From an uncultured Gammaproteobacteria bacterium (GTDB lineage: Bacteria > Pseudomonadota > Gammaproteobacteria > Eutrophobiales > Eutrophobiaceae), in contig OY282354.1 of assembly GCA_958295485.1 (NCBI GenBank), forward strand, positions 2,166,068 through 2,230,067: DNA of 64,000 bases. Direction: 5' to 3'. A program made the position numbers and the translations under genes. Numbering within the stretch: the first letter of the stretch is position 1; every line of letters starts with the position of its first letter. Of this stretch, positions 45,691 to 59,487 are shown in pieces. The notes below the pieces were generated by a model. It was not told where the DNA came from. It ran no database searches and was given only the letters and a program-made list of their open reading frames with translations.

Positions 45691-45893
45691 CTTATTTCAA
45701 TTTTTCCCGCGCTCCCTGCGGTTTGATGATATTGCGCTCATTCTTAACGTCAAGTCAGTATCGCAGACATGGGCACGGAAATAGAGATGGGCGATCTCGA
45801 TGCCGGCTTCGCGAAACCGGCCTGGCTGGGTAAAGACGTATCCAATGAACCCAGGTATTACAACGTTTACTTGATAGAGCAGCCTTACAGCCG

Positions 45894-45983
45894 CTGGCGC
45901 TGACCCACAAGGGCAATCCCTGTGGTACCCTGCCCTCGCTACGCGCCGACGCTGCCCAGGGCAAGCGCGGGCCTGCCCCTGCA
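45894..45983 (+). repeat. GC-rich dispersed repeat, copy 2
   Basis: See copy 1. Intergenic between ampG and the MFS gene. Confidence 0.65.
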
Positions 45984-46024: not shown

Positions 46025-47734
46025 TCATCCCGCGTTTTTTAATTCTTCCTCCGACATGTGGTGTCTTGCATCCACCGGGCGCATGAAAGCATTGCTTACC
46101 AATGCTATCGCCAATAACAACGCCATGAGATACATGGTGGTGTTATACAGGTTGGTGGTTGGGTCGACGCTGCCGGCCGGCGCGATCTCCATCAATTTGG
46201 CGATGGTCACGGTTTTTGCCTGCACCAGCGCCGACAGTTGATCAACGCCGGCGCCAAACGTCGCCTTGAAAACAGCAGGGTCTGTTTTCGCCACCAAATC
46301 ATCGATGGCCCTGGTTACGGCGCTTTCCCGCAGGGAAGTAATCGCCCAGGGGCCTAATACGCCGGCGGTGCTCCAGGCGGTCAACAACCGGCCATGGATG
46401 CCCCCGACGTATTTCGTGCCGAAGATGTCAGCCAGGTATGCCGGGATAGTGGCAAAGCCGCCGCCGTACATGGTGAAGATAATCATGGTTGCCGCATAAA
46501 AATACACCAACCAGACTACGGCGGGGTTGACGCTGACCTGTTGCGCGGTATAGGGGATGGAGCAATAGAGTAAAATACCCAACGCAAAGAAGATCCAGTA
46601 GGTGTTGCGCCGGCCCATGTAATCCGATGCGCTGGCCCAGATAAAACGGCCTACCATGTTAAACACGCTGATCATGATTACGTAGGTGGCGGCAAAGGCC
46701 CCATCGACGATACCCGGCAAGGTCGTGCCGAATATCTCGGTCATCATGGTCTTGGCCACGCCAAGTACGCCGATGCCGGCGGTGACGTTGAAACAGAGCA
46801 CGATCCATAATTGGTAAAACTGGCGCGTTTTCAGGGCCTGGTCGATGTCCACGTGGTTCTGCGTCATCATTTTCTTTTGCGCATGGGTTTCATCCGGTGG
46901 AGTCCAACCGGCCGGTCGCCATCCTTCCGCCGGGAGGCGATAAGAAAATGCGGCGATCATCATGATGACGAAGTAAATAACGCCCATGGTGAAAAAGGTC
47001 TGCGCAACGCCTACTGAGCCGGTACTGACCAGGTAGACGCCTTCCGGACCGGGCACCACCATTTTTGCTATTTCATTGGCGCCGACCACTACCACCTCCT
47101 GTAATTCGCCACCAACTTCCACAAAGCGTCGGCCTGCTTTTGTAATCAGTTCGACGTCGGCGACCATGCCGAGATACTCAGGGGCCTGGTAATAAAATTT
47201 AATGAAAAATTCCTTTAACGGCGCGCCGATCATGGCGCCGCCGCCGAAACCCATGATCGCCATGCCCGTGGCCATGCCGCGCCTGTCAGGGAACCATCGG
47301 ATGAGCGTGCCAACGGGGGAAACGTAACCCAGTCCCAAGCCACAGCCGCCCAGTACGCCATAACCCAAATACAACAGCCATAACTGGTGGCTGATAATCC
47401 CCACGCCGCCTAATATGAACCCTCCGCCCCAGCAACACGCTGATACTACCCCTACCTTGCGCGGGCCCACTTGTTCCAGCCACCTGCCGCCGATGGCGGC
47501 CGCCAAACCCAAAAAAACGATTGCCACGGTAAATATCCATACAACGCTTTTCAGGCTCCAGTCATCAGCTGCGCCGCTAACTACCCCGATGTGTTTTATC
47601 AGGGCGGGATTAAAGATACTCCAGGCATAAACCGAACCGATACAAAGGTGAATCCCAAGAGCCGCCGGCACGATTAACCAGCGATTGAATCCGGGTTTGG
47701 CAATGATTTGCTGCTTAGATAAAAGACCCGACAT
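46025..47734 (-). CDS. MFS transporter, oxalate/formate antiporter (OFA) family
   Basis: 569 aa from the ATG at 47734 (MSGLLSKQQIIAKPGFNRWLIVPAALGIHLCIGSVYAWSIF). Twelve or more TM segments with a large central loop. Confidence 0.85.
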   Translation of the reverse strand: MSGLLSKQQIIAKPGFNRWLIVPAALGIHLCIGSVYAWSIFNPALIKHIGVVSGAADDWSLKSVVWIFTVAIVFLGLAAAIGGRWLEQVGPRKVGVVSACCWGGGFILGGVGIISHQLWLLYLGYGVLGGCGLGLGYVSPVGTLIRWFPDRRGMATGMAIMGFGGGAMIGAPLKEFFIKFYYQAPEYLGMVADVELITKAGRRFVEVGGELQEVVVVGANEIAKMVVPGPEGVYLVSTGSVGVAQTFFTMGVIYFVIMMIAAFSYRLPAEGWRPAGWTPPDETHAQKKMMTQNHVDIDQALKTRQFYQLWIVLCFNVTAGIGVLGVAKTMMTEIFGTTLPGIVDGAFAATYVIMISVFNMVGRFIWASASDYMGRRNTYWIFFALGILLYCSIPYTAQQVSVNPAVVWLVYFYAATMIIFTMYGGGFATIPAYLADIFGTKYVGGIHGRLLTAWSTAGVLGPWAITSLRESAVTRAIDDLVAKTDPAVFKATFGAGVDQLSALVQAKTVTIAKLMEIAPAGSVDPTTNLYNTTMYLMALLLAIALVSNAFMRPVDARHHMSEEELKNAG

Positions 47735-47830
47735 ACTTCCCCCTTTTTTATTTATTTCAGGCGCCCACTCCGGCTGCGCCGACGCCCTCCGCCAGGCGCC
47801 AGAACAACAAACGCGCATAAACAGGCCAAG

Positions 47831-48061
47831 TCAAGATTCGACCCCTTTACACCAGCGCATATTCAGCTTTCTTTTGTGCGCCGCGCAGTCACGCAAGTAA
47901 AGATTAATAAGAGTTTGATAAGGAATGCCCGATTCTTCTGAAAGGGCTTTAAAATACTCGACAGAATCCCTGTCTAACCGCATGGTAACGGGTTGCTTCA
48001 GAAATTTCACATAAGGGTTTTTTTTGCCCTCCATTTTTGAAAATTCATAGTGTTTTCTCAT
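47831..48061 (-). CDS. BrnA/CopG-like antitoxin-family small protein (orphan; no toxin gene seen)
   Basis: 76 aa from the ATG at 48061. VTMRLDRDSVEYFKALSEESGIPYQTLINLYLRDC matches the motif I recall for that antitoxin family. Lies 31 nt downstream of the DUF1998-type gene on the same strand. Confidence 0.6.
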   Translation of the reverse strand: MRKHYEFSKMEGKKNPYVKFLKQPVTMRLDRDSVEYFKALSEESGIPYQTLINLYLRDCAAHKRKLNMRWCKGVES

Positions 48062-48092
48062 TTTCTGTAACTCCAACAGGTCTGTTCTATTG

Positions 48093-49913
48093 TTACAGAT
48101 ACTCCCTGATTTTCCTATCCAGGAATGAATTAAACCCCTCACAGGCATTTTCAGCGATTAATACACATGAATAACACGCCGCCAAATTCATTTCGCCAAC
48201 ACCCTGTCCCTTAGAATGGTAACAAATTGGATCAGACGCACAGTCTTTGGCTCGCTCTAAAGCGCAATCCAAAAGGTCGGCAAATTTATCAGGTTGAGCC
48301 TGAGATACCAAACCACCATAACTTCCTTCCATGCCACCCACCGTATAAATCAACGCTCCTTGCATATTCTTATTATCAACGAACAATCGCTCGCTCAACG
48401 AAACCGTTGGATAGCCACAAAAAAATTCCAACTCTTTCATCAAAAAATGACAAAGAGTATGGACAAAAATATATCGTCCCAAATGCTGATAACCGGAAAA
48501 ACGATCATGAAACAAAGGAGACTTACCAACTTTCTTATAAATCCCTTCTAATAAGCTCCTGGTTTTTTCTATGTATTTTTGAATTACATCTGAGCTAATT
48601 GTGAAAAATATCCCTTCACCATAATTTTCTGCTCCCAATAAATATTCAGTATTTTTTGCTTGTGATGAGGTATATCGAGGTTTGATTTGATCGGAGTCAC
48701 CTCCCAAAAACAAATCAATGTCAATCGGTTGCTGGCGAGTATAGCCGGTTTGCACGGTAGTTATTTTAAGCCGGGAAACTGCTACCAGCTTCTCAATTCC
48801 TGATAAGCTTAACGGCGGCTGGTGTTTAAATATAAATTCATTATGTATCGACCGCTCTTTTTGTAACAGATACTCATATTCTTGTTTGCGGAATTCCGCC
48901 TCTCTCTCAAAAGGTGTCTTTGCATTGCTACTGTTTATGTACTGTTTAATATCCTCTTTGCTATATTTGCCCTCCAATTCATCAAACATGTGGTCTATGG
49001 TTTTTCCCCTTTCTCCCCAACGATCTATTTTTCTTTGGTCCGCATCTGAAATATTACTCTCATGTGGTAAATACAGACTGCGAACCAGAAGGGGGTAATA
49101 GACGCTGTTACTTGAACGAACGACTGTCTTATACCTGTGCTTGCTGTCTCCTGATGAAAAAGTTAAACCAAATAAGCCAGAAAGAGTTGCACGTTTCCAA
49201 CAAGATGCACAGCGAATACTAATGCCTGCTAAATCCTCAAAATCACCTTGCCTATAGTTCAAATCGGGATTGCCACAACATCGGTTCCAATTGGCTAAAT
49301 CAATGGCGCCATCCTGCTCGTCTCTGGATTGCTCTTTAAAGGTAATCCAACGGTCCCAAGGCACATCCCTGATTTTTCCATCAGAGCTAATCATAATGAA
49401 GCGGACCTGTGTTAATTCATAATATTTTTTCCTTTTTTTATCTTGGGATGCTTTGGAATAACAGTGATAACATTTGGGTGGTATAAATAGCCCGCGCGCG
49501 CTATTGGCTTTCCCGGGCCCATATTGGGCAATAGCATCTTTCCAACCTTTTAACCATTGCTGCATCTTTTTGAAGCTGTGGCAATTACTACAAAACATCC
49601 ACTCAGGAAAATACTGGGCGCTTGCAACTGCCTCTGGGTCGGCAGGTTTGGAGTTGTAGCCGAAATCGTTAGCGGTGTTGACTGGCGCACTAACCAACAT
49701 TTTTAATTTCGGAAATCCCTTTTCACTACGCAATCGTTTAATCAAACGATTGTCTGAAATTTGGTATTTTTCATCATCTTTCTTCTTTTCAATATAACGC
49801 CACCTTTCAAGGTTGTTTATTTTTACTACTCCGTCAACACCTTCAACCAACGCCCCCACGCCGGCAAATGCCCCCACCATTTTTCGGCTGGGTATTTCCA
49901 ACCATTTACTCAT
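48093..49913 (-). CDS. DUF1998-type zinc-binding protein, DrmB-like
   Basis: 606 aa. N-terminal PSRKMVGAFAGVGALVEG motif. CxxC...CxxC ribbon (C108/C111/C148/C151; nt 49461..49592). C-terminal cluster C-x5-C-x15-C-x2-C-x7-C (nt 48141..48242). Its ATG overlaps the helicase stop (ATGA). Confidence 0.75.
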   Translation of the reverse strand: MSKWLEIPSRKMVGAFAGVGALVEGVDGVVKINNLERWRYIEKKKDDEKYQISDNRLIKRLRSEKGFPKLKMLVSAPVNTANDFGYNSKPADPEAVASAQYFPEWMFCSNCHSFKKMQQWLKGWKDAIAQYGPGKANSARGLFIPPKCYHCYSKASQDKKRKKYYELTQVRFIMISSDGKIRDVPWDRWITFKEQSRDEQDGAIDLANWNRCCGNPDLNYRQGDFEDLAGISIRCASCWKRATLSGLFGLTFSSGDSKHRYKTVVRSSNSVYYPLLVRSLYLPHESNISDADQRKIDRWGERGKTIDHMFDELEGKYSKEDIKQYINSSNAKTPFEREAEFRKQEYEYLLQKERSIHNEFIFKHQPPLSLSGIEKLVAVSRLKITTVQTGYTRQQPIDIDLFLGGDSDQIKPRYTSSQAKNTEYLLGAENYGEGIFFTISSDVIQKYIEKTRSLLEGIYKKVGKSPLFHDRFSGYQHLGRYIFVHTLCHFLMKELEFFCGYPTVSLSERLFVDNKNMQGALIYTVGGMEGSYGGLVSQAQPDKFADLLDCALERAKDCASDPICYHSKGQGVGEMNLAACYSCVLIAENACEGFNSFLDRKIREYL

Positions 49914-52900
49914 TGTTCACTGCACCCGTCTTGGGCATTCGGTATCTGGACTTGAATAAAACTACTACTGTCTATATCCCGCATGGACTGCATCACTTTC
50001 CATTTCTTGTCTTCCTCGGATACTTGAGACGTCGGCTTCTTCAGCAATGCGCTCGTCTTCCCATCATAGGTTTCATAAGGATTTTCTTTGCTAATTTTTC
50101 CATGCCAATCTTGCGCCAATTCATCCAACTTTTTACAACAATATTCAAATATTTCAGGCTGATTAAATCGGCCTCTAATCACTTGTTTTAAATTCAGCCC
50201 ATGCTTGCGCTTATCGAAATCTTTTATACTCTCATTTTTGTAAAGCCCTTCCTTGTGTCGCACATAAGTGATAAACATACTGGCGATCATCTTATCAATA
50301 GTATTGGCAGTGAAAGGGGTCAAACTGAGCGGCTCAACCTGCTTGTACAGTGATTGATGGAATGATATAAAATGCTCAAAACAAGATTTGTCACGAGCTC
50401 GATTTGAGTCAAAAAAACTAATCACCAATCCTTTATCCTTCCTGCCTATTCGCGAGGAAGCCTGGATATACTCAGCGGTGTTACGCGGCATTCCGTTAAC
50501 CAGCATGATATTAAGACGAGAAATGTCAATGCCTACTGACAGCATATTGGTTGCCAAAACCAAATCAACCACACCCTTTGCTGTGTATTTATAGCTTTCT
50601 GGATGAGTTTCTAAACTAAAAGCTTTTTCCAATTTGCTCAAAGATTGTTTTATTTTGCTGCTTTCAATTCGTGAAGTTAGTTCCTCCGTTCTATTTTTCA
50701 GGCCATAAAAATTAAACCGGTGTTCGCTTAACCCCAGACTTGCCTGTTTTTGTCTAACAGTAGTCATAATTTCATCACCCACCTTGTTCGACATCCTGCC
50801 AACATCTCTAAGGCTGTTGTAATAGGAAACCAATGTCCAATACGGGGATGTTTTATCCTCATTCTCTCCACATTCCAGATGTGTTCGCAGACGAGCAATA
50901 AAAAGAGCAGATAATAATTGCACTTGGCTATCTATGCCCGTTTTCCCCGTTGGCATAAACCCTAAATAGCAGCGATTACTTTCTTCACCTTGTTTGGCAA
51001 AAAAACTGTCCTCATAACTTAATCCAGGTGGTGGGAAAACATAAGATTGCCTGTTGCTGTAGAGGTTTTTGATTTGTTGGTCAGTATTGCGAGTAGTTGC
51101 CGTGGATGCAATAATTTTTGGTTTCTTGCCTTCTTTACTACAAAGGTCCTCAACCACTGTTTCAAAGAGGCCCGAAATAGAGCCTAATGGCCCTGACAAA
51201 AGATGAAGCTCATCCTGAATGACTAAATCGGGCGGTAGCCCCCCTTCTTGCAAACTATTAAAAAATCTGTGACCCTTCTCCCTCCAGCCCAGCATGGCAA
51301 ACTTGTCGACTGTTGCAAACAATAATGAGGGGGGATAGTTGTATAAAGCATCATCAACAACGGATATTGGCAAGCCTGCTCCATTATGAAAATGACATTT
51401 TTCATTCAGGCATTTGATGACCATTCTTTTCTGTCCGTCCCTGACATCAAAGGCATGAGTATAATTGCCTGATTTGTTGCCAATTAGCGGGCTATTACAC
51501 CAGGGACATTTATCAATTTGAAATCGAGTTGCCCGTTCCCCGTTTTCTCTAATTTTTTCAGTTATTTTTTTTGCATCTTCTAATGTGTTGGGCGTGGAAG
51601 ATTGTCCGATCCACAAACCGGCCGAAATCGGATCTTTCTTTAATTCACCAACAAAATTCAACCTTAAATATTCCAATACCGTAATAAGTCTGCTTGTTCT
51701 TTCAAACTGCTGGGCCGTCAGCAACCTGAGGGTATATCGCATGATGACTGAAACACCTTGATAGTTGTCATTATTCATCCTGCGCCACAATATGGTTAGC
51801 GTCGCAACAGCCAAATATGCTTCTGTCTTACCCCCACCAGTGGGAAACCAGATTAAGTCCACCCCTTCATTACGATACTCTGATTCAGGATTGATAACAC
51901 TCTCAAGACTTAGCAACAAGAACGCCAATTGAAATGGACGATAATGATATTTCTTTAATTGAGCTTCGGGAATCGGACAGCTATCCGTTAAATTCGTATT
52001 TTTTTGTATCAGCGAATAACCATTTTCCTCATTCAAGGCAAACTGTAGCAGCATTGCCGTGTTGGTGAACTGAAATGCCCTAAACAGATCTCTATTTGTT
52101 TTTATTAATTCCACGCCTTCATTTAATCGCGTGAGGGTGGTATCCAACTGATCAAAAATTTGTTTTGCTTCTTTTCCCCCAGCGTCACTGGACTTTTTCT
52201 GCTCAGCTATCCAGTCAGCATACTTCCCGACAAATTGTTCAATTCGACAGACAGTTTCTGCTTGAGAATCCCCCCATATAGACAAGTCGGAAAGAGCGAT
52301 ATTTTCTCCTTTCGTGGTAAGCCCTTTTAGCTCGTATATGGGCAGGTAACTTGTTTTTATCCAGCCTGGATGCCCATTATTTTCATCCCAGACCGCGCTA
52401 CAATTATGCCCGATGGCAAAATGCTTTTGCCCTCTATATAAAAACTCCAATTGTTTTTGTTCATCATCACCTTGAAATGAGCGATTGCGCTTATAATTCT
52501 GTAACTTCCCGGATTGAATGGCAATTTCTGATTGAAACAGGCAGGAGCGATTAATCTCTTCGTTCGTCGAAGAAAACCCTCTCTCTTTGAGGGTGCTGAA
52601 ACAGTTGACCAACTGTAATTTTATATATTGCTTCCCATCTTCCTGGAATTTTTTGATCGTATAACCGGCATTTTCGAATTTTGAAAATCTCCTGGGATTG
52701 ATAATCTCTTGCCCATCAACAGCTACTTGCTCAACGATTTTATAAAATTTCCGCTTCCATATTGGCCTAATTAGTTTTCTGAAAACATCTCCGGCTCGTT
52801 TTGGCTCTTTAGCATCCTTCGGCAACTTTTTAACCCAGTCATCAAAATCCTTATATGCTCTGGATTTCACCTTTGTTTCTTTCAGTTCCCGGGTTAGAGA

Positions 52901-53473
52901 AAGGTAACCATGATTATCTTCAGTCGGTTCAAATTTCAACAAATCTTTCAGCGGAAATCCGTATTTGTCATCACAGAGAGTTAGATAGGTAGATTTCGTC
53001 GTTTTCAGGCGTATATCATCTGCGTTGAATTTGTCGCTATAACAAGCAAATGAGAAAGTAGCGTTTATGTATTTTTCCGATTTATCCACACAAAAACTGA
53101 TACCCATATCAGAGGGATAGAAGTGGGAAGTAGTATCCGTATAAAAATCTTCTTTTAACTGCTCTGTTGGCTTTTCCTCACTTTCAATATCCTGCCCCCC
53201 AGAGAGATCATCGCTTTCTTCATCGTCCAATTCAGGAACCTTATTTTCACTGTCATCTATCGCTGATTCACTATCATCCCTATCCCTGGCGCCATGGTTT
53301 TCATCTTTTTTCCTGGGATAAAGCACACCAGTGTAATAACGCTTCAGTGGAAAACCAGATATAAGCTCCTCAGCAATATTTTCATCATCAAAAATATCTG
53401 AGCCCGGACCCAGCAACAACTCGCGAATGGTCTTCTCAAAAATTTTAATAGCTGGCTGTGCCATCTTCTTCAT
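49910..53473 (-). CDS. Large SF2 (DExH) helicase, DrmA-like
   Basis: 1187 aa. Motif I FPTGGGKTEAY (nt 51821..51844), motif II DELH (51203..51214), motif VI QASSRIGR (50441..50464). Non-helicase N-terminus of ~540 aa with an acidic tract. Cys4 insertion between motifs I and II. Confidence 0.8.
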   Translation of the reverse strand: MKKMAQPAIKIFEKTIRELLLGPGSDIFDDENIAEELISGFPLKRYYTGVLYPRKKDENHGARDRDDSESAIDDSENKVPELDDEESDDLSGGQDIESEEKPTEQLKEDFYTDTTSHFYPSDMGISFCVDKSEKYINATFSFACYSDKFNADDIRLKTTKSTYLTLCDDKYGFPLKDLLKFEPTEDNHGYLSLTRELKETKVKSRAYKDFDDWVKKLPKDAKEPKRAGDVFRKLIRPIWKRKFYKIVEQVAVDGQEIINPRRFSKFENAGYTIKKFQEDGKQYIKLQLVNCFSTLKERGFSSTNEEINRSCLFQSEIAIQSGKLQNYKRNRSFQGDDEQKQLEFLYRGQKHFAIGHNCSAVWDENNGHPGWIKTSYLPIYELKGLTTKGENIALSDLSIWGDSQAETVCRIEQFVGKYADWIAEQKKSSDAGGKEAKQIFDQLDTTLTRLNEGVELIKTNRDLFRAFQFTNTAMLLQFALNEENGYSLIQKNTNLTDSCPIPEAQLKKYHYRPFQLAFLLLSLESVINPESEYRNEGVDLIWFPTGGGKTEAYLAVATLTILWRRMNNDNYQGVSVIMRYTLRLLTAQQFERTSRLITVLEYLRLNFVGELKKDPISAGLWIGQSSTPNTLEDAKKITEKIRENGERATRFQIDKCPWCNSPLIGNKSGNYTHAFDVRDGQKRMVIKCLNEKCHFHNGAGLPISVVDDALYNYPPSLLFATVDKFAMLGWREKGHRFFNSLQEGGLPPDLVIQDELHLLSGPLGSISGLFETVVEDLCSKEGKKPKIIASTATTRNTDQQIKNLYSNRQSYVFPPPGLSYEDSFFAKQGEESNRCYLGFMPTGKTGIDSQVQLLSALFIARLRTHLECGENEDKTSPYWTLVSYYNSLRDVGRMSNKVGDEIMTTVRQKQASLGLSEHRFNFYGLKNRTEELTSRIESSKIKQSLSKLEKAFSLETHPESYKYTAKGVVDLVLATNMLSVGIDISRLNIMLVNGMPRNTAEYIQASSRIGRKDKGLVISFFDSNRARDKSCFEHFISFHQSLYKQVEPLSLTPFTANTIDKMIASMFITYVRHKEGLYKNESIKDFDKRKHGLNLKQVIRGRFNQPEIFEYCCKKLDELAQDWHGKISKENPYETYDGKTSALLKKPTSQVSEEDKKWKVMQSMRDIDSSSFIQVQIPNAQDGCSEQ

Positions 53474-53532
53474 TCTTTGCAGTTGTAATTTAATCTATTA
53501 AAAGAAAGGAAGGCAGATTTATCGAAATATTC

Positions 53533-55923
53533 TCATACGGTTGTAATACTTTGAATTTCTCGGCATGGCATATTGCTATCAGATATAATTTCCACTGTTT
53601 CATCATCAAACTTTTCCAGGATCGGGCCTTTTACTTCGTTTAGCACATAGTCGGTAATTTCATCGCTCAGGTCTCTTCCCAGCGCAACCATAATACTGTT
53701 GTAGTTTCTTTTACTCTTAATCACTTGATTGCATTGATCAGGATCATCCTTGAAAAGAAATCTGAACACCTCGTCATTCCTTGGGAATTTTGTAGAATCT
53801 GTTTCTTCCCATTTCAATACGGTACTGTTCCTTACCCCGAAATGCTCATGCTGTTCATCAATCTTTCTCTGAAGTAACTCTCTACGTGCTATCACAGGAT
53901 GATCATAGAGGAGTGATAGCAGGGGGTCGTCATCAGAAACTTCAGTATTCAAATATATGGTTAGGGCTTCCTTCCATTGTCTTGAACATGTTTGAATCTG
54001 ATTAAACGCACCACTATCATTCGCTTCACTCGCAACCTGAAACAACAGGCCTTCATGTTGGTTCTCATAAATTCTTATTCGGTCACCTGTTGTTAAATCC
54101 CCCACTTTGTACTTTTTTAAACCTTCTCCATCTGATACCAAAAGTACTGATTTACTCGAGGGTAAAACATTCTCACTTGCATCTGTAAAGACAATCTTTT
54201 TTTCGATACTATCTTGCCATTCAGGAGCATATCCACCAGGAGTTTCACTCTCCCCTGTTTCTCCAAAGATACGTATAATTACCTCACCAGGCGTTTCCGC
54301 AGGCTCTCCGTCGATTGGAAAATCTACACTTGTCAGACTTTTTCTGTCAGAAGACCCAAGCTCTTTTATCAGGTCATTCTCAAACTTTGCTTTATCATGG
54401 TCAAATTGCTTACATTCATCGGTATATAGCAACCATTTGAAAGGATGAGGCTGATGGCTAAATGCCTCGAATTGTTTGTCTCTTATCTCCATGACTGTTA
54501 TCTCTGACCCTTGCTTTAGCTCCTTTATACCAGCTTCCGTTATGGCCTGCACCCTATCCAGGTTCAGACCCCTTATATCCTCCTCCCAGATGTATTTGGT
54601 CTGGTGTTTCGGTATGAGCAAATAGGTATCTCTGAGTGTGCGAAGGGCATGGGATTTTTTATTATTCATATACCTTATTTGCCCAATCATCTCATTAAAT
54701 GCCTCAACTATTTGTTCATTCGCCGTTGTCGGGTCACCACCAAAATCTGAAAAGGCTTCTTCCAGGATAGTTTTTGCTGCTTTTCTAAACTTCTCCTGTA
54801 AATCATCAGCACTGTTCACTAATCGACTGTTTTCTGAAGGAGGAACAAGCGCATAGCAATATCTGATATAGGGTAGTAGTCTTCGCTGAATGCTTATTCC
54901 ATTTTGTTCTTCGACGGATTTTAATAAATCAATAAACTTGGTTTGAGCATCCTGCAAATCTTCATGTTCAATTTCTTGACATGTCTGCTCACTCGGTTTG
55001 TCATTCCTCAAGTGTTGTAGCTCAAGTGGCATCCATTGCCATCTCAACACCGAATCAACCTTTGGTTTTTCCCGTCCAACCGAGATTACACGCTTAACCT
55101 GACCCCTATTGATGTCATCCTGGATTTGTTCATCGACTGCTTTATTAAGAAACACCACGGTATCCAACTTGATACCTTCATCAAAGACATACTGTTTAAT
55201 ATCCTCATAAGAGGGCGCTAAATAAAACAAGTTGTCATCTGTCTCCAAATTTCGAGAAAAGTCACCGTTTCTGTCTATATAGATGTAGGGATAGGCCCTC
55301 CTATCGGTCTTGTTAAAACAGCCCTCGAAAGTATGCTTGGTAGCCACAATGGCATATTTACCTGGGAAAAAAGAAATATTTACCTTACGCCCAATTACTT
55401 CTTTCAAAAAGGCCAGCATATACTGAAATGTATTCCGGTTAGTTACATTGGCATCGGCATACAGCTGGGTATATTCTTTGTTTAAATCTTCGAGAACCAC
55501 GTAGCGTGATGAACCAGCATTTTTACGACTGAGACATTCAAGTTTTATAAATTCCCCGCCGTATTCAGGCATATCATGGTGGGGGTCAATGACCTTATAT
55601 GTTTCCCTGCCTTTTTTGTATTTATCCCCCTCTTGAGGATATTGCTCACTGCTCAGACGGTAATTAAACTCCAAAAAATGAATTGCCAGCGCAAAAACGA
55701 TAGGTTCATAGAGACATTCCACAATTGATTGATCAACACTAATCCAGAGATTCTTATCATCCTGATCGTCTCCCAGTACTTTCAAAACCAAAAAGCCATT
55801 CAATGCCTCAAATTTATCAAATCGTTTTTTTACTATAGGTTGATTCTGCTCTTCTTCCGTAAAAGCAAGAAAAAAACGTTTAAGATATTCGACTACTGGC
55901 TGTTTTATATCTTCGTTGGCCAT
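53533..55923 (-). CDS. Hypothetical 796-aa protein, first gene of the helicase/DUF1998 cluster
   Basis: Long uninterrupted ORF in AT-rich DNA, 59 nt upstream of the helicase gene on the same strand. No P-loop, nuclease or methyltransferase motif recognised. Its position and size resemble DrmE of class 2 DISARM (positional inference only). Confidence 0.8.
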   Translation of the reverse strand: MANEDIKQPVVEYLKRFFLAFTEEEQNQPIVKKRFDKFEALNGFLVLKVLGDDQDDKNLWISVDQSIVECLYEPIVFALAIHFLEFNYRLSSEQYPQEGDKYKKGRETYKVIDPHHDMPEYGGEFIKLECLSRKNAGSSRYVVLEDLNKEYTQLYADANVTNRNTFQYMLAFLKEVIGRKVNISFFPGKYAIVATKHTFEGCFNKTDRRAYPYIYIDRNGDFSRNLETDDNLFYLAPSYEDIKQYVFDEGIKLDTVVFLNKAVDEQIQDDINRGQVKRVISVGREKPKVDSVLRWQWMPLELQHLRNDKPSEQTCQEIEHEDLQDAQTKFIDLLKSVEEQNGISIQRRLLPYIRYCYALVPPSENSRLVNSADDLQEKFRKAAKTILEEAFSDFGGDPTTANEQIVEAFNEMIGQIRYMNNKKSHALRTLRDTYLLIPKHQTKYIWEEDIRGLNLDRVQAITEAGIKELKQGSEITVMEIRDKQFEAFSHQPHPFKWLLYTDECKQFDHDKAKFENDLIKELGSSDRKSLTSVDFPIDGEPAETPGEVIIRIFGETGESETPGGYAPEWQDSIEKKIVFTDASENVLPSSKSVLLVSDGEGLKKYKVGDLTTGDRIRIYENQHEGLLFQVASEANDSGAFNQIQTCSRQWKEALTIYLNTEVSDDDPLLSLLYDHPVIARRELLQRKIDEQHEHFGVRNSTVLKWEETDSTKFPRNDEVFRFLFKDDPDQCNQVIKSKRNYNSIMVALGRDLSDEITDYVLNEVKGPILEKFDDETVEIISDSNMPCREIQSITTV

Positions 55924-56333
55924 TGTCAGTTTGGTAAATAGTCAAAGTCGGAATAGGCGGCAGGGGTTATCGATGATCTGATCAGACCACTCCAGCCCGA
56001 TTAACGCCCGGGGATGAGAATATAATACCTTTAGAAAAGTTATCGCAGATTTCACGGTGTCTGATCTTGAGGTCAACAAAGATAATTGTTCTCATTATAT
56101 TCCAGACTGGGAACTAGTCAAAATGTTGTGAAAATTCAAATAGATGCAGATGAAGGATGTGTGGACATGCAAAGACTGTCTGAAAGCAATGCATGAAATG
56201 ATCCCTTAAGTATGTGTCAGCCACAAATAGCCTACAAGGTTTTGACCTTGGCATGATTATTGAGTAGAATTAATGTATCGAATGACAGGGGCCATCCCCC
56301 CCGTAAGCGGTTGAGAGACCTGGTTGAAAAATC

Positions 56334-58274: not shown

Positions 58275-58850
58275 ATGGGGGGCAGTGACAAGGGCCTGGT
58301 GACGCTGGCGGGCAAACCCCTGGTCGAGTACGTTGTGGAAGCCCTGTCGCCCCAGGTTGATTCCATTATCATCAATGCAAACCGGAACCAGGCCAGGTAT
58401 GCCTCCTACGGCTGCCCCGTTATAGCGGACAGCAGACAGGGATACCAGGGGCCTTTGGCGGGCATGATGGGCTGCATGGAGGAAATAGATACGGAGTTCA
58501 TGGTTTCCACGCCGTGCGACTCCCCCCTTATACCAGGTGACCTGGTGTCCAGGTTATTCAGGCAGCTGGTGGATGAGGATGCGGAAATAAGCGTTGCCCA
58601 TAATGGGGAGAGGATGCAACCGGTGTTTACACTCATGAAGGTATCCTTAACCGATTCAATACGCGCTTTTCTTGACGGCGGCGAGCGCAAGATAGACAAA
58701 TGGTTCAAACAGCATAAACTGGCAGTGACCGATTTTTCCGATAAGCCGATGTCCTTCAGCAACATAAATAATCCGGCTGAGTTGAAACAGATGGAAACGG
58801 AACTGAATATTTTACTGGATTCCCGCTTGCGCGGGAGTGGCGGAGGGTGA
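58275..58850 (+). CDS. mobA: Molybdenum cofactor guanylyltransferase MobA (start problematic)
   Basis: Coordinates are from the first in-frame ATG. The conserved N-terminal motif VTGVILAGGEARRMGGSDKGL begins in the same frame at 58236, upstream of that ATG, with no ATG, GTG or TTG between the stop at 58176 and 58275. Confidence 0.8.
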   Translation: MGGSDKGLVTLAGKPLVEYVVEALSPQVDSIIINANRNQARYASYGCPVIADSRQGYQGPLAGMMGCMEEIDTEFMVSTPCDSPLIPGDLVSRLFRQLVDEDAEISVAHNGERMQPVFTLMKVSLTDSIRAFLDGGERKIDKWFKQHKLAVTDFSDKPMSFSNINNPAELKQMETELNILLDSRLRGSGGG

Positions 58851-58990
58851 ACCGGGTGCGTGAAGCCGTGCAATCCGTTGGTGTGCCGTTGGGCGGCTTC
58901 GCTGCCTGTAGCGGGAGTGGTGGAGGGTAAACCGGGTGCGTGAAGCCGTGCAATCCGTTGGCGTGCCGTTGGTCGGCTTCGCCGCCTACA
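58831..58990 (+). repeat. Tandem direct duplication, 2 x 80 bp, spanning the mobA 3' end and mobB 5' end
   Basis: 58831..58910 versus 58911..58990 differ at about 7 positions by hand count. Copy 1 carries the mobA stop TGA (58848..58850); copy 2 has TAA at the equivalent site. Confidence 0.95.
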
Positions 58991-59487
58991 GCGGCACCGG
59001 CAAGACGACGTTGCTGGTGAACCTGCTGGGGATTTTTATTTCCAAGAACCTGCGCGTCGGCGTCGTAAAACACGCGCATCACAGTTTTGAAATTGATTAC
59101 CCGGGCAAGGACAGCTTTGAGCTCAGGAAGGCCGGCGCCAGCCAGGTATTAATCGGTTCAAAAAAGCGTTGGGCGCTGCTGGTCGAAAACAGGGATAGTC
59201 ACGACAAGCCCCTGGAATTTCATATCGGGAACCTTGACCTGGAAAACCTGGATCTCATATTGGTCGAGGGCTTCAAACCCGAGGCTATCCCGAAAATAGA
59301 GCTTCATCGCCCAAGTTTAGGCCATGATTTTTTGTGCCTGAATGATGATAGCATCATAGCTATCGCCACCGATGCCGAGTTATCAATCGAGACGGAATTA
59401 CCGGTCCTGGATTTGAATAATCCGGGGCAAATTGCACGATTTATTATTGACCGTTACTCCCTGAACAAGCAAACTGGACGGAATTGA
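58936..59487 (+). CDS. mobB: Molybdopterin-guanine dinucleotide biosynthesis adapter protein MobB
   Basis: 183 aa from the GTG at 58936 (alternative GTG at 58963). P-loop GFAAYSGTGKTTL, VVKHAHH motif. Confidence 0.88.
   Translation: MREAVQSVGVPLVGFAAYSGTGKTTLLVNLLGIFISKNLRVGVVKHAHHSFEIDYPGKDSFELRKAGASQVLIGSKKRWALLVENRDSHDKPLEFHIGNLDLENLDLILVEGFKPEAIPKIELHRPSLGHDFLCLNDDSIIAIATDAELSIETELPVLDLNNPGQIARFIIDRYSLNKQTGRN

What the first reader, a model, noticed from the sequence alone, without database searches (positions are those of the whole stretch)
47831..55923. AT-rich ~8-kb island encoding a DISARM-like core (unknown 796-aa protein, DrmA-like helicase, DrmB-like DUF1998 protein) with no methyltransferase and no PLD nuclease
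Seen in the sequence: four co-oriented minus-strand genes (53533..55923, 49910..53473, 48093..49913, 47831..48061) are separated by a 59-nt gap, a 4-nt ATGA overlap and a 31-nt gap. The segment is visibly far more AT-rich than either flank; by eye it is around 40% GC against the low-to-mid 50s, and this was not computed. Both flanks are core genes (an OFA-type MFS transporter and moaA), so the island is complete inside the window. I see no integrase, tRNA or bounding direct repeat. The 1187-aa protein has SF2 motifs I (FPTGGGKTEAY), II (DELHLL) and VI (QASSRIGR). The 606-aa protein has the N-terminal VGAFAGVGALV motif, a CxxC...CxxC ribbon and the C-terminal multi-Cys cluster characteristic of DUF1998. 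Established knowledge: a helicase plus DUF1998 pair is the DrmA/DrmB core of DISARM (Ofir et al. 2018). There it occurs with the PLD nuclease DrmC and a DNA methyltransferase (DrmMI or DrmMII), plus DrmD or DrmE. Fused helicase-DUF1998 proteins also occur in Druantia (DruE) and in the Bacillus repair helicase MrfA. Inference: a helicase/DUF1998 trio with an uncharacterised first gene and no modification or nuclease module is one of two things. It may be a minimal DISARM derivative that tells self from non-self by another principle. Or it may be an undescribed helicase/DUF1998 defence (or repair) system.
Basis: partly seen in the sequence, partly recalled or inferred. Interest (0 to 1): 0.88.

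Follow-up and report, generated by a model that had tools for sequence, protein, structure and literature searches.

The report
Methylase-free minimal DISARM defence island
An 8.5-kb AT-rich insertion between two housekeeping genes carries only the three genes known to be essential for class 2 DISARM phage defence (drmE, drmA, drmB), with no DNA methylase or nuclease, and the same trio recurs in more than 25 unrelated genomes, which suggests that this form of DISARM tells foreign DNA from self without methylation.

Summary
Four co-oriented minus-strand genes sit in a 40.4% GC island, against 51.8% for the rest of the window. A related species has moaA and the MFS gene directly adjacent, so the island is an insertion.

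The 1187-aa and 606-aa proteins are DrmA and DrmB. The "unknown" 796-aa protein is a very divergent DrmE. Full-length homologues pass NCBI's DrmE_fam cutoff, and one is named "DrmE family protein". The family profile aligns collinearly with the protein in the DrmE position of a methylase-linked locus.

A confident AlphaFold model (pLDDT 87) shows an SF2-helicase-like fold, but the family lacks ATPase motifs. I read it as a dead helicase.

The drmE-drmA-drmB trio keeps the same order in about 30 loci from several phyla, including two plasmids. It is AT-rich almost everywhere and its neighbours vary. No linked DISARM methylase or PLD gene was found.

It is therefore a recurrent, methylase-free and nuclease-free class-2-type DISARM core. 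I call it a new variant of a known system, not a new system. The likely mechanism, inferred only, is DrmAB sensing of DNA ends with DrmE as a non-catalytic partner.

Conspecific strains have lost most of drmE and its promoter region. The small fourth gene is an orphan BrnA/CopG-like protein found only in this lineage.

The parts
47749..56303 (.). Inserted AT-rich island, 8,555 nt at most (the empty site in the relative has 160 nt of intergenic DNA here)
   Evidence: BLASTN against the related species L038 aligns up to window 47748 on one side and from 56304 on the other, with 160 nt between the genes in L038. GC is 0.407 against 0.518 for the rest of the window.
53533..55923 (-). drmE-like gene (796 aa): a divergent DrmE-family protein with a predicted ATPase-dead SF2-helicase-like fold
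   Evidence: It has no direct Pfam, PADLOC or NCBIfam hit. An exhaustive profile search found 117 cluster representatives, and 19 of 53 full-length members hit NCBIfam DrmE_fam. P0011 and P0017 pass the cutoff (94.6 and 98.3 bits against 80) over their full length. The window protein aligns with P0011 at 26% identity, full length, E 1e-61. P0017 is WP_298547648.1, named 'DrmE family protein'. hhalign against the DrmE-position protein of a C5-methylase-linked locus gives 94.5% probability. The AF2 model has pLDDT 86.9. Foldseek matches RIG-I, MDA5, Hef, XPF, XPB and Snf2. The family has no Walker A motif.
49910..53473 (-). drmA (1187 aa): SF2 helicase of the short, class-2-like DrmA type
   Evidence: PADLOC DrmA 2.9e-192. 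NCBIfam DISARM_DrmAS scores 817.6 bits, below the equivalog cutoff of 950. PDB 7S9V_A 1.3e-135. Motifs I, II and VI are intact.
53132..53317 (-). [quoted passage not shown]
   Evidence: The alignment to 7S9V_A is weak here but anchored on both sides: RYYTGVLYPR with RYLVGKLAPR, and YPSDMGISFCVD with VPSSLGMTFCVD. Composition. Trigger-loop coordinates from PMC9142583. That the loop works as a trigger loop is inferred.
48093..49913 (-). drmB (606 aa): DUF1998/MZB zinc-binding partner of DrmA
   Evidence: NCBIfam DrmB_fam scores 284.3 bits (cutoff 240) over the full length. Pfam MZB. PADLOC DrmB 9.6e-52. PDB 7S9V_B 2.6e-31. It overlaps drmA by 4 nt (ATGA).
47831..48061 (-). Orphan BrnA/CopG-like ribbon-helix-helix gene (76 aa). 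It is part of the island but not of the conserved trio.
   Evidence: Pfam BrnA_antitoxin 6.4e-9 and CopG_antitoxin 8e-6. A GGAG lies 9 nt upstream of the ATG at 48061. It is present in the conspecific strains L036 and L037 and absent from all other trio loci by tblastn. No BrnT-like partner ORF was found.
56094..56121 (-). Best promoter-like site upstream of drmE (TTGACT-16-TATAAT, 11 of 12 matches)
   Evidence: This is a consensus match only, and the number of such sites in the region is not above chance. It lies inside the stretch deleted in the conspecific strains.

Best explanation
The island is a horizontally acquired, self-contained drmE-drmA-drmB operon. It is the class-2-type DISARM core without its C5 methyltransferase (drmMII) and without the PLD protein (drmC). 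An unrelated orphan BrnA/CopG-like gene sits next to it.

Shown here:
- The identity of the three proteins.
- The insertion itself.
- The recurrence of exactly this trio, in this order, across phyla.
- The absence of a linked methylase or PLD gene.
- The helicase-like but motif-less predicted fold of DrmE.

Inferred mechanism:
- DrmA and DrmB form the ATP-driven translocase solved for Serratia.
- An acidic loop keeps the complex shut, and it opens when it loads on free 5'-overhang or single-stranded ends. Such ends occur on injected phage genomes, rolling-circle intermediates and conjugating DNA.
- DrmE, a catalytically dead helicase-like protein and the fastest-evolving of the three, acts as the obligatory DNA-binding or licensing partner.
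- Self is spared because chromosomal DNA lacks such ends, not because it is methylated.
- Interference comes from blocking replication or from borrowing a host nuclease.

The confidence of 0.6 is for the whole statement. Taken separately, I put the identity and architecture part at about 0.9 and the methylation-independent mechanism at about 0.45.
For: Identity of the proteins.

Insertion and composition:
- A related species has an empty site.
- GC is 0.404 in the island and 0.518 in the rest of the window.

Recurrence:
- drmE-drmA-drmB appear in the same order in every locus that holds enough DNA (about 26; a few short contigs show only part of it). The loci examined are 24 species-level genome loci, 2 plasmids and 6 metagenome contigs. 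They come from Gammaproteobacteria, Bacteroidota, Calditrichota, Cloacimonadota, Deltaproteobacteria and one archaeon, whose short contig holds only drmE.
- The trio has lower GC than its flanks in 15 of 16 loci.

No conserved fourth gene:
- Among 130 neighbouring ORFs from 18 loci, no Pfam or PADLOC family occurs more than 3 times, and no methylase or PLD family is in the lists.
- tblastn with DrmC, DrmMI, DrmD and C5-methylase seeds is negative in all trio loci, while the control loci score.
- Only 3 loci have an ordinary type I or type III restriction-modification system within 10 kb.

Selection: dN/dS for drmA and drmB is about 0.19-0.23 between the window and L001.

DrmA features: ATPase motifs are intact and an acidic loop sits at the trigger-loop position.

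Literature:
- In class 2 DISARM, drmA, drmB and drmE are each essential and drmC is dispensable.
- In class 1, removing the methylases causes no autoimmunity, and DrmAB is autoinhibited by a trigger loop that 5'-overhang DNA releases (PMC9142583; bioRxiv 10.1101/2021.12.28.474362).

DrmE:
- It diverges faster than DrmA or DrmB in every pair, for example 49%, 72% and 74% identity against L001.
Against: - No function was tested, so defence activity is assumed from homology and context.
- In the one class 2 system studied, loss of drmMII was reported as deleterious (cited). A methylase-free class-2-type core should then be autotoxic unless something else differs.
- Only 64 kb of this genome could be inspected, so an unlinked methylase or PLD gene cannot be excluded.
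- The window DrmA scores below NCBI's equivalog cutoff (817.6 against 950 bits).
- The window DrmE is not recognised directly by any DrmE model.
- Two conspecific strains have deleted most of drmE and the promoter-like region. dN/dS between them and the window is raised to 0.42-0.45. The cassette may therefore be dispensable or decaying in this population.
- The trigger-loop correspondence rests on a weak alignment.
- The DrmE fold matches have low TM-scores (0.2-0.34), as expected for a multi-domain comparison.
Confidence: 0.6

Rival explanations
1. This is canonical class 2 DISARM with a split locus. The trio still relies on methylation marking, supplied by an unlinked orphan methyltransferase elsewhere in the chromosome or by a neighbouring restriction-modification system. 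A host PLD nuclease may also take part.
For: - Loss of drmMII was deleterious in the studied class 2 system.
- Bravo et al. propose that DrmAB can borrow host PLD nucleases.
- Three trio loci sit beside type I or type III restriction-modification systems.
- Only 64 kb of this genome was visible.
Against: - About 15 of roughly 20 well-flanked trio loci have no DNA methylase within 6-10 kb, and no methylase family recurs among the neighbours.
- The cassette moves as a three-gene unit into unrelated contexts and onto plasmids. Dependence on a resident methylase would make each transfer risky.
- The residue reported as the methyl sensor in Serratia DrmA (V1296) is Ile in 26 of 30 trio loci, but Val in all four control loci outside the trio family, three of which carry a linked methylase. 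This hints at altered sensing, though it could simply be a clade marker.
Confidence: 0.2
2. This is a decaying remnant. A former complete class 2 DISARM lost drmMII and drmC, and the remaining genes are non-functional or on the way out in this lineage.
For: - Conspecific strains L036 and L037 have deleted about 2.3 kb covering most of drmE and the best promoter-like site.
- dN/dS between the window and these strains is 0.42-0.45, against 0.03-0.09 for the flanking genes.
- L001 carries an extra truncated drmE copy.
Against: - In the window all three ORFs are intact and keep their catalytic and zinc-binding motifs.
- The same three-gene unit is intact in about 30 loci across phyla, with long-term dN/dS near 0.2.
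- No fragment of a methylase or PLD gene is present in the island. The gaps between its genes are only 59, -4 and 31 nt.
- drmA and drmB stay intact even in the strains that lack drmE. Between those two strains dN/dS is 0.16 and 0.07, though on few substitutions.
Confidence: 0.1
3. This is a housekeeping or damage-repair helicase module, similar to MrfA/YprA, rather than an immune system.
For: - YprA-family helicases with DUF1998 include the repair helicase MrfA.
- The island encodes no nuclease or modification gene.
Against: - The island is absent from a related species at the same junction.
- Its composition is foreign.
- It is carried on plasmids and sits next to restriction-modification, RhuM, SIR2, toxin-antitoxin and integrase genes elsewhere.
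- DrmA and DrmB are split as in DISARM rather than fused as in MrfA. Their best matches are DISARM models and the DISARM structure.
- There is no MrfB-like exonuclease.
Confidence: 0.05

Closest known systems
Class 2 DISARM (drmE-drmA-drmB-drmC-drmMII; Bacillus paralicheniformis, Ofir et al. 2018)
   Same: - DrmA is of the short type, and DrmB is a separate DUF1998 protein.
- A DrmE-family gene lies immediately upstream, in the same order and tightly packed.
- These are the three genes reported as individually essential for class 2 defence.
   Different: - There is no C5 methyltransferase and no PLD protein in the island, in the 64-kb window, or next to the trio in most of the roughly 30 related loci.
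- DrmE is too divergent for the DrmE models to detect directly.
- DrmA falls below the equivalog cutoff.
- Ile replaces the Val reported as a methyl sensor.
Class 1 DISARM of Serratia sp. SCBI (DrmAB structures 7S9V and 7S9W)
   Same: - DrmA and DrmB are clear homologues (E 1.3e-135 and 2.6e-31).
- An acidic loop sits at the trigger-loop position.
- In that system the methylases are not needed to avoid autoimmunity, and drmC is dispensable.
   Different: - Class 1 has the active SNF2 helicase DrmD and the N6 methylase DrmMI.
- Here the accessory partner is an ATPase-dead helicase-like DrmE, and there is no methylase.
ARMADA, BRIGADE, TALON and Druantia (YprA-family systems; Bell et al. 2025, PMC12458937)
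   Same: They are built around a YprA-type SF2 helicase with a DUF1998 module. That paper notes 'many uncharacterized DISARM-like classes' in the DISARM clade.
   Different: - ARMADA needs a BrxHII-like helicase and a PglX-like methylase.
- Druantia has a fused DruE plus DruH or other partners.
- None of these partner genes is present here, and the helicase and DUF1998 parts are split as in DISARM.
MrfAB (YprAB) DNA repair module
   Same: It has an SF2 helicase with an MZB/DUF1998 zinc domain.
   Different: - MrfA is a single fused protein paired with the exonuclease MrfB and is a chromosomal housekeeping gene.
- Here the proteins are split, mobile, of foreign composition and lack an exonuclease.

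Membership tests
DISARM class 2 (PADLOC type II: DrmA, DrmB, DrmC, DrmE, DrmMII) | DrmA helicase | tested here: met
   PADLOC DrmA 2.9e-192. 7S9V_A 1.3e-135. NCBIfam DISARM_DrmAS is the best hit, but at 817.6 bits it is below the equivalog cutoff of 950.
DISARM class 2 | DrmB, a separate DUF1998/MZB protein directly downstream of DrmA | tested here: met
   NCBIfam DrmB_fam scores 284.3 bits against a cutoff of 240, full length. Pfam MZB. It overlaps drmA by 4 nt.
DISARM class 2 | DrmE directly upstream of DrmA | tested here: met
   No DrmE model hits it directly, so membership rests on remote homology. Full-length homologues P0011 and P0017 pass the DrmE_fam cutoff. BLASTP of the window protein against P0011 gives 1e-61. 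P0017 is named 'DrmE family protein' by NCBI. hhalign to the DrmE-position protein of a methylase-linked locus gives 94.5% probability.
DISARM class 2 | DrmMII, a C5 cytosine methyltransferase in the operon | tested here: not met
   There is no room for one in the island. The other 53 window ORFs give no methylase hit in PADLOC, none has PCQ+ENV or DPPY-type motifs, and tblastn with two C5 seeds is negative while the controls are positive. The rest of the genome could not be searched.
DISARM class 2 | DrmC, a PLD-family protein | tested here: not met
   tblastn with two DrmC seeds is negative in the window and in all trio loci. PADLOC finds no DrmC or PLD hit in the window. The literature reports drmC as dispensable and often missing.
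DISARM class 2 | Host motif methylation marks self, and the system gives anti-phage protection | not testable with these tools
   This needs a methylome and phage assays.
DISARM class 1 | DrmD SNF2 helicase and DrmMI N6 methylase upstream of drmA | tested here: not met
   tblastn with DrmD and DrmMI seeds from L006 and L007 is negative. The upstream gene is DrmE-like, with no ATPase motifs.
ARMADA (Bell et al. 2025) | YprA-like helicase with a BrxHII/RapA-like helicase and a PglX-like methylase | tested here: not met
   Definition. No PglX or BrxHII gene is present, and DrmA gives only a weak BrxH hit at 1.2e-6 over 60 residues.
Druantia | Large fused DruE (helicase plus DUF1998) with DruH or DruA-D partners | tested here: not met
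   The helicase and DUF1998 are separate genes. The DruE models hit only the Helicase_C region at 2e-6 or weaker.
MrfAB/YprAB repair module | Fused MrfA helicase-MZB protein with the MrfB exonuclease, in a conserved chromosomal location | tested here: not met
   The genes are split and there is no exonuclease. The island is absent from a related species and has foreign composition.

The most novel reading that the evidence does not exclude
drmE-drmA-drmB is a stand-alone immune system that needs neither modification nor its own nuclease. The autoinhibited DrmAB translocase recognises invader DNA by its structure (free 5'-overhang or single-stranded ends). The fast-evolving, ATPase-dead helicase-like DrmE supplies the licensing or target-recognition step that methylation sensing provides in canonical DISARM. 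If so, the methylase and PLD genes of 'classical' DISARM are add-ons to this ancestral or minimal core.
Probability: 0.4. Interest if true: 0.75.

Novelty: new variant of a known kind. Interest (0 to 1): 0.62.

Why it matters
DISARM is defined and detected by its link to DNA methylation. [quoted passage not shown] How DISARM avoids attacking the host is still debated.

A three-gene form that lacks both the methylase and the nuclease, yet recurs, moves horizontally and is conserved across phyla, is a natural minimal version. It could show directly whether DrmAB plus DrmE is enough for defence and for self/non-self discrimination.

It would also mean that current annotation rules miss a whole branch of DISARM-type systems.

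The prediction that DrmE is an inactivated SF2 helicase gives the least understood DISARM component a concrete hypothesis that can be tested. It also suggests a parallel with the active SNF2 helicase DrmD of class 1.

Tried and rejected
- Direct family scans of the 796-aa protein (Pfam, PADLOC even at E<=10, NCBIfam) gave nothing useful. The only hit was a sub-threshold DUF7639 match.
- The word-indexed homologue search found only one relative. The exhaustive profile search was needed to find the family.
- BLASTP against the DrmE-position protein of a Lactiplantibacillus plantarum class-2-like plasmid locus was negative. Only the profile comparison detected it.
- AF2 with a 2-sequence alignment failed, with pLDDT 36. 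The run with 53 sequences succeeded.
- A profile search of PDB sequences for DrmE found nothing.
It was rerun with 12 sequences, so it is limited to one peptide pattern and undercounts loci.
- The window is not E. coli.
- Two look-ups of window proteins, meant to obtain Pfam annotation for the rest of the window, found no record.
- DPPY-type motif hits next to other trios were checked. Most were chance: an aminotransferase, a gluconolactonase and a permease.
- No bounding direct or inverted repeats, tRNA or integrase were found for the island.
- The promoter and terminator scans were at chance level overall.
- Ofir et al. 2018 is not held in the library, so its results are cited through later papers.
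- No paper or supplement was found that describes a methylase-free DrmE-DrmA-DrmB class.
- ARMADA, Druantia, Dpd and MrfAB were considered and rejected on gene content.
Full report
**1. The observation**

The gaps are 59 nt, a 4-nt ATGA overlap and 31 nt.

The mechanical ORF for the small gene extends to 48148 and overlaps drmB. The ATG at 48061 has a GGAG 9 nt upstream, so it is the likelier start.

The island is 40.4% GC and the rest of the window 51.8%. GC3 is 0.375-0.44 in the island genes and 0.55-0.67 in the flanking genes.

The flanks are an OFA/lactate-type MFS transporter and moaA. The MFS gene probably starts at 47734 rather than 47818.

**2. Identity of the helicase pair**

The 1187-aa protein is DrmA:
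- PADLOC DrmA, 2.9e-192.
- The solved Serratia DrmA 7S9V_A, 1.3e-135.
- Its best NCBIfam model is the short DrmA, DISARM_DrmAS. The score of 817.6 bits is below the equivalog cutoff of 950.

The 606-aa protein is DrmB:
- NCBIfam DrmB_fam, 284.3 bits against a cutoff of 240, over the full length.
- Pfam MZB/DUF1998.
- 7S9V_B, 2.6e-31.

**3. The "unknown" first gene is a divergent DrmE**

Direct scans found nothing. The word-indexed search found a single 46%-identical relative.

An exhaustive HMMER search with that pair found 117 cluster representatives among 1.84 billion proteins. The link to DrmE rests on these results:
- Of 53 full-length members, 19 hit NCBIfam DrmE_fam, the best at 3.9e-45.
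- P0011 and P0017 pass its curated cutoff (94.6 and 98.3 bits against 80) over their whole length.
- P0011 aligns with the window protein end to end at 26% identity, E 1e-61.
- P0017 is WP_298547648.1, which NCBI names "DrmE family protein". It carries a weak Pfam DrmE_C hit.
- The family profile aligns collinearly over 623 columns (94.5% probability, E 8e-8) with the protein that lies between a C5 methylase and DrmA-DrmB on a Lactiplantibacillus plantarum plasmid.

The operon is therefore drmE-drmA-drmB.

**4. What DrmE looks like**

With the 53-sequence alignment, AlphaFold2 gives a confident model (pLDDT 86.9, pTM 0.76). Foldseek places it among SF2 helicases:
- RIG-I, MDA5 and LGP2.
- The Hef helicase domain, XPF and XPB.
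- CSB, Chd1 and Snf2.

These matches have E 3e-7 to 1e-3 and probability near 1. Viral Snf2 and SF2 helicases match as well. TM-scores are low (0.2-0.34), as expected when multi-domain proteins are compared whole.

The family has no Walker A motif. The single match among 53 members is at a non-homologous site, and the columns where motifs I and II should lie are not conserved as G-K-T or DExx.

I infer an ATPase-dead helicase-like protein with these parts:
- two RecA-like domains;
- a helical insertion;
- a small beta-barrel;
- a conserved helical C-terminal domain.

No solved structure matches it by sequence. I found no paper in the library that describes its fold.

**5. The trio recurs, moves, and has no linked methylase or PLD**

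Loci came from three sources:
- Two plasmids, Haliscomenobacter hydrossis pHALHY02 and Hymenobacter sp. DG25B.
- 24 species-level genome loci.
- Several metagenome contigs.

Every locus that holds enough DNA shows drmE-drmA-drmB in the same order and tightly packed. The hosts span sponge-associated and other Gammaproteobacteria, many Bacteroidota, Calditrichota, Cloacimonadota, a deltaproteobacterium and an Aenigmatarchaeota MAG (whose short contig holds only drmE).

tblastn with DrmC, DrmD, DrmMI and C5-methylase seeds scores in the class 1 and class 2 control loci. It scores nowhere in the trio loci.

Among 130 neighbouring ORFs from 18 loci, no Pfam or PADLOC family occurs more than three times. 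None of the listed families is a DNA methylase or PLD. The commonest are housekeeping enzymes, with scattered defence and mobility genes: ResIII, RhuM, PDC-S05/S23, integrase and IstB.

Motif-flagged candidates were checked. Only three loci have an ordinary restriction-modification system within 10 kb: type I in L004 and L017, and type III in L012.

The trio is poorer in GC than its flanks in 15 of 16 loci. In the window itself, none of the other 53 ORFs hits a methylase or PLD model or carries the catalytic motifs.

**6. History at this locus**

A related species (MFS protein 89% identical; GCA_965243115.1) has moaA and the MFS gene 160 nt apart with no island. This bounds the insert to window 47749-56303.

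Two conspecific contigs, with flanks about 98% identical, carry the island. They have lost window 54831-56157, 54208-54709 and 53636-54150. That removes most of drmE and the best promoter-like site (TTGACT-16-TATAAT, 56121..56094). drmA, drmB and the small gene stay intact at 95.7% nucleotide identity.

| Comparison (drmA / drmB) | dN/dS |
|---|---|
| Window vs the island in another genome (L001) | 0.19-0.23 |
| Window vs the drmE-less strains | 0.42-0.45 |
| Between the two drmE-less strains (few changes) | 0.16 / 0.07 |
| Flanking genes (MFS, moaA) | 0.03-0.09 |

DrmE always diverges faster than DrmA or DrmB. Against L001 the identities are 49%, 72% and 74%, and against L003 they are 32%, 48% and 46%. 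L001 also carries a truncated extra drmE copy. drmE is thus the volatile part of the cassette.

**7. Mechanism (inferred)**

Published work gives four anchors:
- DrmAB is the core DISARM motor.
- It is autoinhibited by a 55-residue trigger loop (DrmA residues 176-232), which single-stranded DNA with a 5' overhang dislodges.
- drmC is dispensable and often absent.
- In class 1, deleting the methylases causes no autoimmunity. In class 2, drmA, drmB and drmE are each essential, and loss of drmMII was deleterious.

These points come from PMC9142583 and bioRxiv 10.1101/2021.12.28.474362.

The window DrmA has intact ATPase motifs. At the position of the trigger loop it has a 62-residue acidic loop (24 D/E, 8 K/R), flanked by conserved anchors.

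I propose that the trio works as a DNA-end-sensing translocase complex. DrmE would be an obligatory non-catalytic DNA-binding or licensing subunit. Self/non-self discrimination would rest on DNA structure, not methylation. Interference would come from blocking replication or from borrowing a host nuclease.

One extra hint concerns the residue Bravo et al. proposed as a methyl sensor (V1296). It is Ile in the window (I1167) and in 26 of 30 trio loci. It is Val in the four control loci outside the trio family, three of which carry a linked methylase, and in four trio loci. Two of those four lie near type I methylases. This may be a clade marker, so I do not lean on it.

**8. Rivals**

- A trans-acting methylase elsewhere in the genome cannot be excluded from 64 kb. 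The class 2 toxicity result favours it. The repeated transfer of the bare trio into unrelated contexts argues against it.
- Local decay is suggested by the drmE deletions in sister strains. The window copy is intact, however, and the family is under purifying selection.
- A repair role is unlikely given the empty site, the foreign composition, plasmid carriage and the defence-island neighbours.

**9. Comparison with known systems**

By content and homology this is the class 2 DISARM core. It fails two of the five parts that PADLOC's type II rule requires, DrmC and DrmMII.

It is not one of the following:
- Class 1 DISARM, because DrmD and DrmMI are absent.
- ARMADA, because there is no BrxHII-like or PglX-like gene.
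- Druantia, Dpd or MrfAB.

Bell et al. 2025 mention "many uncharacterized DISARM-like classes" in the DISARM clade. I found no description of this class.

I rate it a new variant of a known kind. The interest lies in three things: a natural methylase-free, nuclease-free DISARM core, a structural hypothesis for DrmE, and a ready-made minimal system for testing how DISARM recognises self.

**10. The fourth gene**

The 76-aa protein matches BrnA and CopG antitoxin families. It is conserved in the conspecific islands and absent from every other trio locus. It has no BrnT-like partner.

It is best read as an orphan ribbon-helix-helix regulator or a toxin-antitoxin remnant that travels with this particular island. 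It is not a system component.

Noticed in passing
L036:3693-4249 and L037:3689-4243 (counterparts of window 53636-56157): Two conspecific strains carry the same island but have three deletions. These remove most of drmE and the promoter-like site, while drmA, drmB and the BrnA-like gene stay intact. The island is 95.7% identical to the window, against about 98% for the flanks.
   Followed up: partly
L001:7873-9060: A 395-aa ORF upstream of the trio is 40% identical to residues 5-310 of the window DrmE. It is a truncated second drmE copy, which suggests cassette turnover or replacement at that locus.
   Followed up: no
window 49973-49975 (DrmA I1167) and the same position in 30 trio loci: The residue proposed as the methylation sensor in Serratia DrmA (V1296) is Ile in 26 of 30 methylase-less trio loci. 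It is Val in all four control loci outside the trio family (three with a linked methylase) and in L004, L017, L030 and L035. L004 and L017 are the trio loci with a type I methylase nearby.
   Followed up: partly
L039:6830-9988 and L039:18108-19187: In the Aquimarina locus whose DrmE is named by NCBI, a 1052-aa SIR2_2 protein ends 12 nt before drmE and a DUF3800 protein follows drmB. This may be a variant in which the trio is coupled to an NAD-depleting effector.
   Followed up: no
window 1-47700 (the individual ORFs were not identified): The PADLOC scan of the other 53 window ORFs gave hits to type IV DinG-like helicase (5.9e-146), SspH (2.1e-59), mad8 (two ORFs, 1.2e-46), mad3 and mad2. The pVip hits are most likely moaA. 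These may be housekeeping homologues or other defence genes.
   Followed up: no
window 58831-58994: An 80-nt unit is repeated twice in tandem (91% match). It overlaps the last 20 nt of the 191-aa ORF (58275..58850) and the first 59 nt of the 183-aa ORF's GTG-start call (58936..59487), downstream of moaA. Repeat number or arrangement appears to differ in the conspecific strains.
   Followed up: no
window 45701-45976: An intergenic stretch of about 80 nt appears to be present in several tandem copies in L037, and the adjoining region is rearranged in both conspecific strains. A 156-aa CYTH-domain gene is called there in those strains.
   Followed up: no
window 47734-47818: The 597-aa MFS ORF begins with 28 residues not found in its homologues (567-570 aa). 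The real start is probably the ATG at 47734, which is preceded by a purine-rich stretch.
   Followed up: partly
L002:737-952 and L009:5902-6138: Toxin-antitoxin genes lie near other trios: a HicA toxin in L002 and an Unstab_antitox gene in L009. This parallels the orphan BrnA-like gene in the window island.
   Followed up: no
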